NCBI GenBank assembly: GCA_951406725.2 | Contig: OX597815.1 | Coordinates: 91,016,001-91,080,000, forward strand | Direction of reading: 5' to 3' | DNA: 64,000 nucleotides | From: Octopus vulgaris | Taxonomy: Eukaryota | In this document: piece after piece, positions 12,200 through 51,205 of the stretch | Layout: each line of letters starts with the position of its first letter | Numbering within the stretch: position 1 is the stretch's first letter | The notes under the pieces: model-generated | Database searches by the model: none | Told to the model about the DNA's origin: nothing | Seen by the model: only the letters and a program-made list of their open reading frames with translations | Program-made: the position numbers and the translations under genes

Positions 12200-12237
12200 C
12201 TGTTACTCGGAGTTTCACGTTCCCGTTCGTCGGACAG
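12200..12237 (-). ncRNA. minimal type-I hammerhead ribozyme-like motif (U4C core)
   Basis: Minus strand: ctgt CCGACGA acg-ggaa-cgt GAAAC tccga GTA acag. Stem I extends as aacaaaa/ttttgtt. Short insert between TA tracts; second copy at 51168. Confidence 0.65.
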
Positions 12238-12415
12238 TTTTGTTAAAATAGAACTGATATATATATATATATATATATATATATATATATATATATAGTT
12301 AGGTACAAAAAATTCAGGGTGGATACTTGATAACTGTAAGCACCTGTATATGCCAGCTAGTGGTGTAGGTGATAGGATATATTTATCAAAAGAAAAACAG
12401 GATGCAAAGGGTTTT

Positions 12416-12502
12416 GCAGTACATATGTTTCTGGCATTATTGAACAATTTATATCAATGCATAATTGATATAACATGTAGGTCAACAGCCTTCTTCAGCC
12501 GC
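12416..12502 (-). ncRNA. type-I hammerhead ribozyme motif with extended stem II
   Basis: Minus: gcgg CTGAAGA aggc[...ttatatcaat-tatgc-attgatataa...]gcca GAAAC atat GTA ctgc. Palindromic ACATATGT stem-III loop. Confidence 0.7.
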
Positions 12503-12781
12503 GTACAATTACCACACCAAAGACATATATTACATTATAGCAGGTTTGAGAAAAAGTTTGGGAAAAAAACGAGTTTCATTGGGAAGGTAAATCCTCATAG
12601 TCGTATTTGGCATAGCGAGACACCAAAACAAAAGGGTATGGACGCTTTGTTTTTGTTTTGGTATCCCGCTATGCCGTATACGACTATGAGGATTTACCTT
12701 CCCAATGAAACTCGTTTTTTTCCCAAACTTTTTCTCAAACCTGCTATAATGTAATATATGTCTTTGGTGTGGTAATTGTAC

Positions 12782-12868
12782 GCGGCTGAAGAAGGCTGTT
12801 GACCTACATGTTATATCAATTATGCATTGATATAAATTGTTCAATAAAGCCAGAAAAATATGTACCGC
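12782..12868 (+). ncRNA. inverted copy of the hammerhead motif (GAAAC mutated to GAAAA)
   Basis: gcgg CTGAAGA aggc...gcca GAAAA atat GTA ccgc; perfect stem I. Confidence 0.55.
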
Positions 12869-12946
12869 AAAACCCTTTGCATCCTGTTTTTCTTTTGATA
12901 AATATATATATATATATATATATATATATATATATATATATATATA

Positions 12947-14538
12947 CAGTTGCGGCCAAAATGTTCAGAACGGCATGGTACAATTTTTTATCTAAGTTGT
13001 TTGATATTCTATAATTTTCACAGACAATAAATACAATATTATTTGTTATTGTCTGAGATTTTGGTGTAATTTGAGAGGATAATACAAAAGTCATGGATGA
13101 TTTAGTGATTTACTGCAAAACCCATGGCGGCCAAAATGATCAGAACGGTTGCTTTTACTCCGTGTTTTAGTATATTGAACCGGCGAACTCTAATGTTTTG
13201 AATTTGTTTACTTGACGGTTCGTTTACTAAACATTAGTAAGAATATCTGCAGTGTACTTTGTTTATATAATGCCACTTACTCCGTTACCAATTCGTCAGC
13301 AGATTATTAAGCTTCGAAAGAAGGATAATTTAAGTATTGGGTCTATTGCAAAGATTGTTAACAAGTCAAAAAGTGTTGTTCATGGTATTCTTAAGGTCTT
13401 CGATGATTGTGGTTCGTGTGAAGCAAGAAAGTCTACATGTAGGCCAAGAAAAACGACCAAGAGAGAATATCGTGCTATGGTAAAGTTGGTTAAAAAGGAC
13501 ATATTTAAAACTGCTGCTGCCGTTTCTCGGGAAATGAGCATTGTACTGAAGAAAACTTTATCTCGAAAAACTGTGTCTCGTCGTTTAGTTGAACATGACC
13601 TACAAGCAAGAGCACCTGCAGTGAAGCCACTGATCAGCTCCAAGAATAAAAAGTGTTGTCTTACCTTTGCAACCGAACATGTGTGGTGGTCTCAAGAAAA
13701 ATGGCAAACGGTGCATTTCAGTGATGAATCTAAGTTTATGTTATTTGCCTCAGATGGGAAAAGGTACGTTCGTCGAAAAGTAGGTGAAAAATTGTCGACT
13801 AAATGCCTTAAGACTAGTGTTAAATTCGGTGGAGGAAGTGTCATGGTTTGGGGGATGATATCTGGAGATGGTGTGGGCCCTGTGGTGCGATTACATGGAA
13901 AGTAAAATGCAGGAGTTTATAAACAACTTGTAAAAGATCATGTCTTGCCTGTGCTGAGAAATTCAACTAAGCGACCACCCATATTCATGCAGGACAATGC
14001 CCCATGTCACAAGGCTAAAGTGGTCATGAACTTCCTCAAGGCTGAAAAGGTTATTGTTATGGATTGGCCTGCTCAAAGCCCAGATCTCAATCCTATTGAA
14101 AATGTGTGGAATATTCTAGGAGAACGTTCGAAAGCCAGAACTCCTAAAACAACTGAGCAATTATGGAATGCCCATCAGGAAGAAAATTGAATAAGATTAC
14201 CCAGCAAGAAATTAAAAATTTCGTTTCCTCATGCAGTCGAAGATGTCAAAGTGTGATTGAAGCTAAAGGGCTTCACGCTAAATATTAAATAATTCCAGTA
14301 TTCTCCGTCATTTTTTATTATTCTGTTATTTTTTCAACCGTTCTGATCATTTTGACCTGTATGGGTTCTGCAGTAAATCACTAAATCATCCATAACTTTT
14401 GTATTATCCTCAGACAATAACAAATAATATTGTATTTATTGTGTGGGAAAATTATAGAATACAAAACAACTTTGATAAAAAATTGTACCTACTTTTCTGA
14501 CGAAAACAATGCCGTTCTGAACATTTTGGCCGCAACTG
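12947..14538 (+). mobile_element. full-length Tc1-family transposon, IR/DR type, in (TA)n
   Basis: Ends cagttgcggccaaaatgttcagaacggc / gccgttctgaacattttggccgcaactg. About 200-bp TIRs with inner direct repeat gcggccaaaatgatcagaacgg (about 13127-13148, mirrored about 14338-14357). TA flanks. Confidence 0.95.
13270..14289 (+). pseudogene. Tc1 transposase, DD34E, two frameshifts (about 13903 and 14185)
   Basis: ORFs 13252..13905 and 13945..14190 contain an HTH region, VHFSDESKF, FGGGSVMVWG, FMQDNAPCH and WPAQSPDLNPIENVW (34 residues between D and E), ending GLHAKY-stop. Confidence 0.93.
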
Positions 14539-14861
14539 TATATATATATATACATACATACATATATATATATATATATATATATATATATATATATATA
14601 TATACTTATTTTAAAATAGTGTACACTATTTTAAAATAAGAATATGTTGTCTATTGACTATTTATACATGCTAGGCCACTGGTGGTGATATTTATAACGA
14701 ATATTCGCTACCCTATATATGTATCTTATATTTATATATATATATATATTTATACACACACACACACGCACACACACACACAGACACACACACACACACA
14801 CACACATATATATATATATATATATATATATATATATATATATATATATATATACATATAT

Positions 14862-48719: not shown

Positions 48720-48809
48720 ATAGATAGATAGATAGATAGATAGATAGATAGATAGATAGATAGATAGATAGATAGATAGATAGATAGATAGATAGATAGA
48801 TAGATAGAT
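48720..48809. repeat. (GATA)n microsatellite
   Basis: Direct reading. Confidence 0.95.
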
Positions 48810-48810
48810 T

Positions 48811-49222
48811 CAGATGAATATGGTATTTAAGTTAAAGGCACCAGAATTTTGTATGGTATTATCTATATAAATCAAATGGGGTGATTATAAGCAAAATAAG
48901 CAACAATATTCATACACTGATAGATCTAAATAACAAAGTGAATTCAATGATAAAATCTACAGACGGAGAATGAACATACAACCATCATGTACTTAATGAT
49001 GAAATTAACCTCTCTGTCTATATATCTACCATCTTTGTAATGTTGGCAAATTAAATAAGTATAAGAATATGCATTGTCCGTTTAAGTGAAAATTTCTATA
49101 TGTGGCTGAAGATTACTCGATATTTTAAAACTGATGTAAAACTGCAGTGTTTAATAAAATGAAGTAGTATGAAACAATTGTACTACCCTACCTTGGATAT
49201 CTTTGTTGCTTATTTTGATTAT
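48811..49222. mobile_element. microsatellite-embedded element H with short residual inverted repeat and hammerhead
   Basis: caaaataagcaacaa (about 48891-48906) mirrored by ttgttgcttattttg (about 49203-49217); ends in (TA)n. Confidence 0.6.
49102..49186 (+). ncRNA. hammerhead ribozyme motif with long stem II insert
   Basis: gtgg CTGAAGA ttact...agtat GAAAC aatt GTA ctac; palindromic ACAATTGT loop. Confidence 0.65.
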
Positions 49223-50016
49223 ATATATATATATAATTCTAGATGTTTACTTCATGTTTTTTTTTCTAGTCTACACACTTTTCATGCATATCTGTACTGA
49301 GCATTTTGTATTTTTGCCTGAAAACATGAATAATTGATATTTGTTAGTCTTCTAGCGAAACGAAATGCGTTTTGTTGGATTCACTGTCTTGATAACCCTT
49401 GTACGTTTATGTTTTCTCAAGTCTCACGATAGTCTTTATGAACGTTGCTCTTTATGTAGGAACCTTTACTTTTTTGTATTACACGCATATTCATACACCT
49501 GCGTAAATATATGTGTGTAAAGAAAGCACCTAATGTTTTAAATTGTCTAAAGAAAAAATAAATTACTAAACTGCAATAAAGTAATAAAATAATAATATTT
49601 ATTTGAAGCTGAAATTTCATGAATCACAATTCTAAGTTTCATGTTACAGATTCTCAAGTGATAATACAATAAATTCAAGAACCTTATACATGAAGTGTGT
49701 GTGTGTGTGTGTGTGTGTGTGTGTGTGTGTGTGTGTGTGTGTGTGTGTGTGTGTGTGTGTTTGTGTGTGTGTGTGCGCGCGTTGAATGTGTAATGCCTGC
49801 AAACAAAAGAGAACCTTCTGATTTTTTTAACCGTTTATCGGAAATATACAAGTGTTTACAAAATTCAACTGTGAAGCAGTTGCAAGTCAAAAATGAGCAT
49901 TTAGAATGGAACCCCTATGGAAAAATATTATGTTGTTTTTCAGAAAATCAAATACCACAAATATTCTTGGTCTAAGTTTAAGTTGTGGTGCCTTCTAAAT
50001 ATAGTCCAAATGCTTA

Positions 50017-50475
50017 AGGCGGCGAGCTGGCAGAAACGTTAGCACGCCGGACGGAATGCTTAGCAGTATTTCGTCTGTTGCTACGTTCTGAGTTTAAATT
50101 CGTCCTTCCTAAAAACTCCCGAAGAAAACTATATTCACCTATCCTCTCCAGAATTGGACGAAATAACATGGATCTTAGAATACATCGCGGGAAATCTGTA
50201 GCTTTGCCTTTCATCCTTTCGAGGTCGATTAAATAAGTACCGGTTACGCACTGGAGTCGATATAATCAACTTAATCCGTTTGCCTGTCCTTGTTTGTCCT
50301 CTCTATGTTTAGCCCCTTGTGAGTTGTAAAGAGTTCAAATTCCGCCGAGGTCGACTTTGCCTTCCATCCTTTCGGGGTCGATAAATTAAGTGCCAGTTGC
50401 ATACTGGGGTCGATCTAATCGACTGGCCGCCTCCTCAAAAAAAAAAAAAGGGCTGTGTGCCTAGAGTAGAAAAGT
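50017..50475 (+). mobile_element. SINE, composite form, interrupted by a 105-bp foreign insert
   Basis: Head aaggcggcgagctggcagaaacgttagcacgccgg, two body blocks and tail tgtgcctagagtagaaaag. Confidence 0.85.
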
Positions 50476-51167
50476 ATATTCCAAGTGCTTTCGCAGTTTC
50501 TGATATTGTGCTTTAATATTCAAATGTGTTTAGCTGTTGTTATATCAGAACGTCTTTCAATATTTCTAGCAGTATATTTATGTTTATTATATCTTAAAAA
50601 TATTTCCAGTCAAACATACATAACATTAGAAACTGAATCATTAGCTGTGAATATTTCGGGCAATAAAAGATAAAATTCGAAAGACATAAATAATTTAAAC
50701 GACATTTTACGGTCAATTGCACAAAGAGAAATATTTAAATTTGAAAAGCAGTCAAAGATTTTTATCATTATTTGGTGTTTTTGTAGAAAAAAATCTATCA
50801 ACAACTAAAATTTAATTTAACATTCGTGTTTATATTCGTATAATATTGTTTTTCTTTTCTTCTAATGATTGCATCGTACTGCAGCTTTGCTGAGGCATCA
50901 AACTTAAGGGGTTAGTCGACCATATCGATTCCACTAATGATCTCAGTCTGGACTTTTATTCATATCTGTTTGTCGAAATTTATGTTACTAAGTATAAAGC
51001 TGACAACATAGAACACAGTGCCAATTCTAAGCGGTGTAGATATAAAACTACATTCACCTATTCATATATATATATATATACAGAGACACACACACACAAA
51101 CAAACACACATACATGAATATATGTATGCATAGATACTTTTATTAAAGCTACAATATATTCACAAAA

Positions 51168-51205
51168 CTGTTACTCAAGGTTTCACGTTCCCGTCCGTCG
51201 GACAG
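51168..51205 (-). ncRNA. second copy of the 12200 hammerhead-like motif (core CCGACGG)
   Basis: Minus: ctgt CCGACGG acg-ggaa-cgt GAAAC cttga GTA acag. Confidence 0.5.

What the first reader, a model, noticed from the sequence alone, without database searches (positions are those of the whole stretch)
12200..51205. Conserved hammerhead geometry with palindromic stem-III loops across unrelated families
Seen: the segment between GAAAC and the GUH triplet differs by family but is mostly palindromic: ACATATGT (A), AACGTT (23184), AACCGGTT (D), ACGT (35116), ACGTACGT (G), ACAATTGT (H), ACGGCCGT (I, 11257). Stem I also varies while pairing: gcgg/ccgc, ttactt/aagtaa, tcttt/aaaga, ttcta/tagaa, gtgg/ctac, ctgt/acag. 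Established: minimal metazoan hammerheads with an unstable stem III can cleave as dimers through palindromic loops. Inference: structure-level selection for dimeric cleavage in tandem or multimeric transcripts.
Basis: partly seen in the sequence, partly recalled or inferred. Interest (0 to 1): 0.75.

Follow-up and report, generated by a model that had tools for sequence, protein, structure and literature searches.

The report
Dimer-type hammerheads of Penelope-like retroelements
This window holds fifteen whole or broken copies, from ten repeat families, of a small hammerhead RNA motif with a self-complementary third stem; three families are tied to Penelope-like jumping genes and the rest likely belong to them, the motif is predicted to cut only when two copies pair up, and this design is already described in other animals.

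Summary
The window has 15 type I hammerhead sites in 10 families; 8 are intact. In the majority sequence of all 10 families, A15.1 to U16.1 is self-complementary.

In 1.2 Mb sampled at fixed places, a descriptor that did not require a palindrome gave 48 palindromic hits of 109, against 2.1 of 25 in shuffles. The central pair of the 8-nt palindromes takes all four Watson-Crick forms.

The motifs lie at the 3' ends of 5'-truncated copies that often end in (TA)n. Families A, D and H are linked to reverse transcriptase or GIY-YIG reading frames. This matches the published Penelope hammerhead consensus (Cervera and de la Pena 2014), and this scan noted it before in other genomes.

- Two strings are mis-delimited.
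- The window's paired copies are head-to-head on opposite strands, so they cannot dimerise within one transcript; same-strand tandems exist elsewhere.
- 70 of 83 copies run across the cut site.

Local twists: long helix II in six families and a fixed A6U core in one. Cleavage is untested.

The parts
11253..11282 (-). Family J hammerhead, 3' half only (5'-truncated inside helix II); stem III ACGGCCGT
   Evidence: full motif in other copies
12200..12237 (-). Family B hammerhead, intact; core CCGACGA (U4C), 3-bp helix II with 4-nt loop, odd palindrome ACTC-C-GAGT
12302..12907 (.). Family A insertion: two 5'-truncated 3' ends head-to-head, each ending in (TA)n
   Evidence: linked to a Hydra-like frame in L074
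12416..12502 (-). Family A hammerhead, intact; CTGAAGA, 60-nt helix II region, stem III ACATATGT
12782..12868 (+). Family A hammerhead, palindrome broken (C15.2A)
23184..23218 (-). Family C minimal hammerhead, intact; CCGACGA plus extra A, 4-bp helix II, loop-less ACGT
33289..34170 (.). Family D insertion, head-to-head, ending in (TA)n; the right arm runs about 35 nt further than the left
   Evidence: linked to a Neptune-like RT/GIY-YIG frame
33328..33372 (-). Family D hammerhead, intact; U3-A8 core TTGACAA, stem III ACCGGT
34055..34099 (+). Family D hammerhead, intact twin
35116..35153 (+). Family E minimal hammerhead; core CTGTCGA (A6U, family-wide), extra A, loop-less ACGT
36896..36955 (-). 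Family F hammerhead; 11-nt odd palindrome with one substitution; left arm of inverted repeat 36730-37374
37163..37208 (+). Family F hammerhead twin; same substitution, 14-nt deletion in helix II
48579..48610 (-). Family G hammerhead, 3' half only, truncated at the junction of inverted repeat 48384-48719; stem III ACGTACGT
   Evidence: young family with tandem arrays elsewhere
49102..49186 (+). Family H hammerhead, intact; CTGAAGA, 58-nt helix II region, stem III ACAATTGT
51168..51205 (-). Family B hammerhead, decayed (A9G, broken palindrome)
51844..51966 (-). Family I hammerhead, intact; 3-bp stem I, 98-nt helix II region, stem III ACGGCCGT
52526..52630 (+). Family I inverted twin, 5'-truncated and decayed

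Best explanation
These are type I hammerhead motifs with a self-complementary stem III in the 3' terminal repeats of Penelope-like retroelements (linked by sequence for families A, D and H, likely for the other seven), predicted to cleave only as a double hammerhead and likely kept that way by selection on active source elements, while the window's copies are likely inert fossils.

Mechanism:
1. Shown in sequence: a single copy can form at most 0-4 weak pairs in stem III.
2. Predicted: two same-family copies swap strands, so that the palindromes form a 4-10 bp stem III and each 5' stem I strand pairs with the partner's 3' strand.
3. Inferred: this happens in transcripts of tandem source elements, cutting out a unit-length RNA; in D the cut would fall about 120 nt before the ORF1 start.
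4. Inferred: a lone 3' motif stays uncut, or the ends are rejoined, so reverse transcription primed at (TA)n copies through the intact motif.
5. Shown: this leaves 5'-truncated, often head-to-head copies that then decay.
For: Enrichment over shuffles. Across-family covariation: the central pair of the 8-nt palindromes is T-A, A-T, G-C or C-G, a pair that cannot form inside one molecule; ACGATTGT, which pairs only through G-U, occurs in 3 sample clusters. Position 7, the free core position, is the most variable (39 of 228), and D carries the U3-A8 compensation. G helix II shows compensatory GAAA/TTTC, GAGA/TCTC, GGAA/TTCC.

The dimer fold is 6-20 kcal/mol below two monomer folds for 11 of 13 natural copies. 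In the natural G tandem, cross-copy A15.1-U16.1 pairing has probability 0.71-0.76 against 0.000 within a copy.

D lies 2.3 kb behind a 675-aa RT/GIY-YIG frame with an inverted truncated twin, and in a 5,807-bp partial tandem just ahead of ORF1. A lies 420 nt behind a Hydra-type endonuclease frame. H lies about 550 nt behind an endonuclease fragment. 35 of 68 3' ends have (TA)4 within 30 nt, against 5.3% background.

Published consensus 'CUGANGAH G..C GAAAN Palind NU H' (PMC4209133 supplement).
Against: No cleavage data, and no raw RNA reads were available. In the L084 tandem the fold model gave the dimer pairs only 0.004, and in G only one of the two swapped stems I formed. For the two ACGT families the dimer fold was 0.9-1.9 kcal/mol above two folds that lack stem III. 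Family E has U at position 6 in 27 of 29 copies, a position where another change gave low activity (PMC3088659). Seven of ten families were not linked to a reading frame. In 28 of 30 Hydra-type endonuclease loci my scan found no motif within 1.5 kb downstream; the untranslated regions viewed were long and repeat-rich. The two D motifs in a tandem would be 5.8 kb apart, and the second was lost in an assembly gap. Published dimer cleavage is weak (PMC4209133).
Confidence: 0.8

Rival explanations
1. The motifs are functional monomeric hammerheads, at least in families with 8-11 nt stem III and long helix II; the palindrome just reflects a short hairpin, stabilised by protein or by tertiary contacts from the long helix II.
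For: A monomer can form 2-4 stem III pairs in A, B, F, G, H, I and J; in A the monomer pair probability is 0.25-0.40. Invertebrate retrozyme hammerheads with a 2-bp stem III cleave efficiently alone (PMC7229834, passages).
Against: A hairpin needs no complementarity at loop positions, yet the innermost pair is Watson-Crick in 14 of 18 8-nt clusters. ACGT and ACCGGT cannot fold a usable stem III alone. 70 of 83 copies run across the cut site.
Confidence: 0.1
2. The fold is conserved but its main role is not cleavage: the palindrome serves RNA dimerisation or protein recognition during retrotransposition, and cutting is marginal.
For: No pile-up of 5' ends at the cut site (2 of 83 within 3 nt, both in one locus). 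Successful families carry U4C or A6U cores. The 2014 paper leaves functions other than cleavage open.
Against: Catalytic positions and the NUH triplet are kept across families that share little else, including the U3-A8 compensation. Rejoined circles would also give copies that span the site.
Confidence: 0.07
3. DNA-level palindromes (protein sites, inversion by-products) or chance matches in AT-rich repeats.
For: The elements sit in inverted repeats; about a quarter of descriptor hits are background (25 of 109); Rfam gives no hit.
Against: Palindromes differ between families yet always sit between GAA and H of a complete core with stems I and II; 16 long palindromic hits against 0.2 in shuffles; G-U-only self-complementary variants recur.
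Confidence: 0.03

Closest known systems
Minimal and palindromic-helix-III hammerheads in pLTRs of metazoan Penelope-like elements (Cervera and de la Pena 2014, PMC4209133; main text parts 1-2 of 4 and supplementary file 2 read whole, file 1 not available)
   Same: Type I core, 3-6 bp helix I, palindromic 15.2-16.2 and loop 3 (4-10 nt there), extra nucleotide after A9, U3-A8 variant, many families per genome, mostly single truncated copies, opposite-strand pairs 100-700 bp apart, dimer model.
   Different: None of the window sites fits their strict descriptor (CUGANGA, loop-less stem III, loop 2 of 3-10 nt). Six of ten families have 28-98 nt between the core halves. U4C is common and A6U is fixed in family E. 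No cephalopod term ('octopus') was found in their supplement text.
Repeat-type hammerheads with palindromic stem and loop III (Perreault et al. 2011, PMC3088659; passages, section 8 and the Fig. S8 legend read)
   Same: [quoted passage not shown]
   Different: A6C was tested there (low activity); A6U was not seen in the text I read.
Small hammerhead variants of Penelope-like retrotransposons that cleave as dimers (Lunse et al., RNA Biol 14:1499; not held, seen only as title and citation in PMC6765202, passages)
   Same: By its title and the review's summary: short palindromic stem III, Penelope association, dimer cleavage.
   Different: Cannot tell; it may already include long-helix-II or A6U variants.
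Neptune and Hydra clades of Penelope-like elements (Craig et al. 2021, PMC8557442; sections 3 and 11, passages, one supplement search)
   Same: Partial tandems, inverted 5'-truncated neighbour, tail extension on one arm, (TA)n targets, hammerhead near the 3' end. D: GxKF, DKG, CX4CxxC linker, cysteines between GIY and YIG, separate ORF1. A: CxCX5C linker, CxxC and CxH around E and N.
   Different: Clade calls rest on motifs, no tree was built; A has DKI where Hydra is described with DKT.
Metazoan non-LTR retrozymes (Cervera and de la Pena 2020, PMC7229834, passages; Li et al. bioRxiv 10.64898/2026.07.22.740005, part 1 of 5 and passages)
   Same: Family G and the L084 repeat form head-to-tail arrays of short units with one type I hammerhead each.
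   Different: G units are 568-588 nt, above the 150-450 nt described, and have a U4C core and a 62-nt helix II region; circular RNA not shown.

Membership tests
Penelope-element hammerheads with short palindromic helix III | Type I order: stem I, CUGANGA, helix II, GAAA, stem III, NUH, stem I | tested here: met
   All 10 families in majority sequence, with variants U4C (B, C, G, J), U3-A8 (D), A6U (E)
Penelope-element hammerheads with short palindromic helix III | Self-complementary 15.1-16.1 segment including loop 3 | tested here: met
   10 of 10 family majorities; enrichment over shuffles
Penelope-element hammerheads with short palindromic helix III | G10.1-C11.1 pair and extra nucleotide after A9 (typical, not universal) | tested here: inconclusive
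   G-C opens helix II in A, C, E, F, G, I (after an extra A in A, C, E, I); B, D, H open with A-U or U-A and J with G-U
Penelope-element hammerheads with short palindromic helix III | Located in the terminal repeat of an element with RT and GIY-YIG | tested here: met
   D, A, H by endonuclease fragment; not shown for B, C, E, F, G, I, J
Penelope-element hammerheads with short palindromic helix III | Self-cleavage as dimer, little or none as monomer | not testable with these tools
   Only energy models
Strict min-HHR descriptor (Cervera 2014, Fig. S7) | CUGANGA core, GAAANNUH, helix II 3-7 bp with loop of 3-10 nt | tested here: not met
   By inspection: C and E are loop-less but have CCGA and CUGU cores; the others have longer stem III. 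Not filed under the strict descriptor.
Endonuclease-bearing Penelope-like elements | RT followed by C-terminal GIY-YIG endonuclease | tested here: met
   D frame: RVT_1 E 9e-8 to 1.5e-7; Pfam GIY-YIG matched only a 58%-identical relative (E 5.5e-4, under the cut-off); motifs read directly. A-frame pieces gave no Pfam hit.
Endonuclease-bearing Penelope-like elements | 5' truncation, partial tandems, inverted 5'-adjacent copy, microsatellite targets | tested here: met
Neptune clade (D) and Hydra clade (A) | Phylogenetic placement of the RT | not tested
   Motif match only
Non-LTR retrozyme (family G) | Head-to-tail short units, one type I hammerhead each | tested here: met
   3 units of 568-570 nt in L214; a second array with 588-bp spacing
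Non-LTR retrozyme (family G) | Abundant linear and circular monomer RNA | not testable with these tools
   Only contigs of runs guessed to be RNA

The most novel reading that the evidence does not exclude
Because stem I as well as stem III is swapped in the double hammerhead, each family carries a two-part lock that admits only its own kind: 8 of 78 family pairs share a complementary stem III, but only the related pair C/E also forms both stems I. The roughly 100,000 or more truncated copies, uncut as monomers inside host transcripts, could then be cut in trans by abundant family-matched partner RNAs such as G-type tandem units. The long helix II and the A6U core would be tuned variants that standard descriptors miss.
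Probability: 0.08. Interest if true: 0.65.

Novelty: new member of a known kind. Interest (0 to 1): 0.24.

Why it matters
The design is published, so the finding is mainly annotation. Its value is as a natural covariation set: one genome holds dozens of families with more than a dozen different 4-12 nt palindromes, including young, near-identical families (G, D) whose tandem sources are at hand. These make the open question, whether and when Penelope hammerheads cut in vivo, easier to test. The long-helix-II forms suggest that published counts of these motifs are low.

Tried and rejected
- Rfam: no gathering-level hit; the weak list shown was nearly all microsatellite noise.
- My first descriptor demanded helix II directly after A9 and found only 4 sites; relaxed.
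- Cis dimers from the window's own pairs: rejected, opposite strands.
- The palindrome alone as a family code: rejected, since ACGT, ACCGGT, ACATATGT and ACGGCCGT are each shared by two or more families.
- Selection on inserted copies: not seen for stem III.
- 5' ends at the cut site: no pile-up. One search used a wrong anchor for family E (it caught an unrelated abundant repeat) and lacked D and J; it was discarded and redone.
- RNA evidence: no RNA holder listed on record. Contigs of runs guessed to be RNA cover the G unit, and 3 of 4 show its head-to-tail joint, but genomic tandems give the same joint. Contigs on D showed no ends.
- The A>G/T>C excess in run X12 is not taken as editing; paralogues can explain it.
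- Linking further families through endonuclease searches mostly failed; one search gave places but no loci.
- Lunse et al. could not be read.
- R-scape was not available; covariation was counted by script.
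Full report
Setting. The window is G000:C2:91016001-91080000 of a 2.8-Gb animal genome in 227 contigs. It is AT-rich and full of microsatellites and transposon remnants. It looks like an octopus genome; that is my recollection-based guess, not a tool result.

Observation. Pattern scans and family alignments give 15 hammerhead sites in 10 families, A to J (coordinates under parts). Its stem III strings run from A15.1 to U16.1, and two carry one extra base at each end.

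Majority stem III per family: A ACATATGT 16 of 20, B ACTC-N-GAGT 16 of 21, C ACGT 17 of 21, D ACCGGT 34 of 35, E ACGT 19 of 30, F ATTGATTCAAT 19 of 21, G ACGTACGT 15 of 15, H ACAATTGT 16 of 26 (ACGATTGT 4 more), I ACGGCCGT 10 of 23, J ACGGCCGT 11 of 17. For A, D, F, G, H, I and J the copies are mostly the best matches to the window copy, so they are not random samples. Eight of the 15 window sites are intact.

Chance test. I fetched 120 stretches of 10 kb at fixed positions and ran a descriptor that asks for core, helix II, GAAA, U-H and stem I but not for a palindrome. It gave 109 hits, 48 fully palindromic; 10 local dinucleotide shuffles gave means of 25.3 and 2.1. Among hits with three or more inner pairs, 16 of 54 were perfect, against 0.2 of 15. 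The window gave 14 hits and 7 palindromes, against 1.9 and 0.08 in 60 shuffles. A stricter run on the first 80 stretches gave 39 (25) against 6.0 (0.25).

Covariation. With one vote per sequence cluster and background clusters left in, 11 of 18 clusters with an 8-nt segment are fully Watson-Crick self-complementary and 14 of 18 with G-U. The central pair appears as T-A, A-T, G-C and C-G; it cannot form within one strand. Other lengths were mostly background: 0 of 3 at 7 nt, 0 of 6 at 11 nt, 0 of 8 at 13 nt. Cluster 12 is a B copy mis-assigned to a distant ACGT, and clusters 16 and 46 may be chance. Across 229 family copies, core position 7 varies most (39), then position 4 (27); other core positions vary 1-8 times. 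Stem III inner positions vary at 5.9% against 5.3% in flanks, with CpG decay in E, I and J, so inserted copies drift and the constraint lies in the source lineages. G helix II shows double compensations.

Host elements. D sits about 2.3 kb behind a 675-aa frame with RT and C-terminal GIY-YIG motifs and an inverted truncated twin (L064). In L313 a partial upstream unit is followed at a period of 5,807 bp by a full unit: hammerhead, then about 120 nt to the ORF1 start, then an 847-codon RT-endonuclease frame; the second hammerhead is lost in an assembly gap. The motifs fit Neptune as described in PMC8557442. A sits 420 nt behind a frame with Hydra-type motifs and an inverted twin (L074); a 73%-identical relative with ACATGTGT follows another such endonuclease (L294). 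H follows an endonuclease fragment. B, C, E, F, G, I and J were not linked to a frame, but share the footprint: variable 5' truncation and a 3' end tens to a few hundred bases behind the motif, at (TA)4 in 35 of 68 cases against 5.3% background. Family-matching sites number 108 in 1.2 Mb, partial copies included, which extrapolates to the order of 100,000 or more per genome.

Arrangement. Of 27 same-family neighbour pairs within 3 kb, 19 are head-to-head, 7 tandem (6 in one array) and 1 tail-to-tail; all 4 window pairs are head-to-head. Opposite-strand motifs cannot meet in one transcript. True tandems exist elsewhere: G has copies 99-100% identical to the window piece and arrays of 568-588 bp, and L084 holds a 353-359-bp array.

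Mechanism. In a type I double hammerhead, stem III and both stems I are intermolecular and the fold is nested, so it can be scored. The dimer lay 6-20 kcal/mol below two monomer folds for 11 of 13 natural copies. The two ACGT copies cannot form stem III alone, and their dimers scored 0.9-1.9 above folds without it. In the natural G tandem the palindromes pair across copies (0.71-0.76) with one complete core; in L084 they do not (0.004). These models ignore core tertiary structure and concentration. Of 83 sample copies, 70 start more than 10 nt upstream of the cut site, 4 within 10 nt of it and 9 downstream, so the templates were uncut or rejoined. This fits a motif silent as a monomer, but also a motif that seldom cuts. 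No raw RNA reads were available.

What is known. Cervera and de la Pena 2014 (PMC4209133) describe this class, its consensus with a palindromic helix III, U3-A8, opposite-strand pairs and weak dimer cleavage. Perreault 2011 (PMC3088659) notes palindromic loop III across ribozymes. A review (PMC6765202, passages) treats the dimer model as established and cites Lunse et al., which I could not read.

What differs. Six of ten window families, and 16 of 27 palindromic sample clusters, have more than 26 nt between the core halves, beyond the 2014 descriptor. Their link to longer palindromes is not significant (13 of 18 against 3 of 9, p 0.10). Family E has U6 in 27 of 29 copies. Searches for these features and for octopus, Penelope and hammerhead together listed no description, judged from listings only. 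The unread Lunse paper, Cervera supplementary file 1 and Craig supplementary file S2 may hold them.

Earlier notes of this scan report the same class in other genomes. One suggested the uncut-template test, another the family-code test.

Verdict. Real, well supported, and an instance of a published kind, with modest local variants. Interest 0.24.

Noticed in passing
window 12947-14538: Tc1/mariner-like element with inverted ends (12947-13151, 14335-14538) and a 224-codon transposase-like frame at 13231-13905; family name recalled from motifs.
   Followed up: no
window 8600-9120, 19291-21100, 29766-30572, 42415-43035, 43223-43935, 55818-56802: Mariner-like, hAT-like and Helitron-helicase-like remnants, judged by eye from translations; labels recalled.
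   Followed up: no
window 22798-23049, 26063-26296, 47997-48263: Further fold-back repeats. The first matches the 3' part of family F (83%) and the second resembles it by eye; neither keeps a type I motif. The third was not examined.
   Followed up: partly
L084:2240-4580: Array of 353-359-bp units with a compact hammerhead (ACCGGT, 6-bp stem I), five forward and two inverted; retrozyme-like.
   Followed up: partly
L214:700-2390: Three 568-570-bp G units, flanked by (TA)n and followed by a fragment of another Penelope-like frame.
   Followed up: partly
L313 (minus strand): D source has a separate ORF1 (about 435 codons from its first ATG) whose frame overlaps the RT frame by 236 nt; frameshift or re-initiation is undecided.
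   Followed up: partly
window 35116-35153 and family E: A6U core in 27 of 29 copies of one of the most abundant families; all four bases occur at position 7.
   Followed up: partly
L214:1073-1218, run X12: Differences mostly A>G and T>C (14 of 23 places) in the part that forms inverted arms; editing or paralogues, undecided.
   Followed up: no
window 3188-3251, 44679-45389, 50008-50442, 54012-54166, 57638-57863, 61103-61256: Very abundant short interspersed repeat with a sharp 5' end.
   Followed up: no
G000: Young Hydra-like and Neptune-like families with many open frames of 776-850 codons; 17,144 and 19,576 first-look candidates.
   Followed up: no
L276:913 (minus strand): Hammerhead with a perfect 12-nt palindrome, the longest seen.
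   Followed up: no
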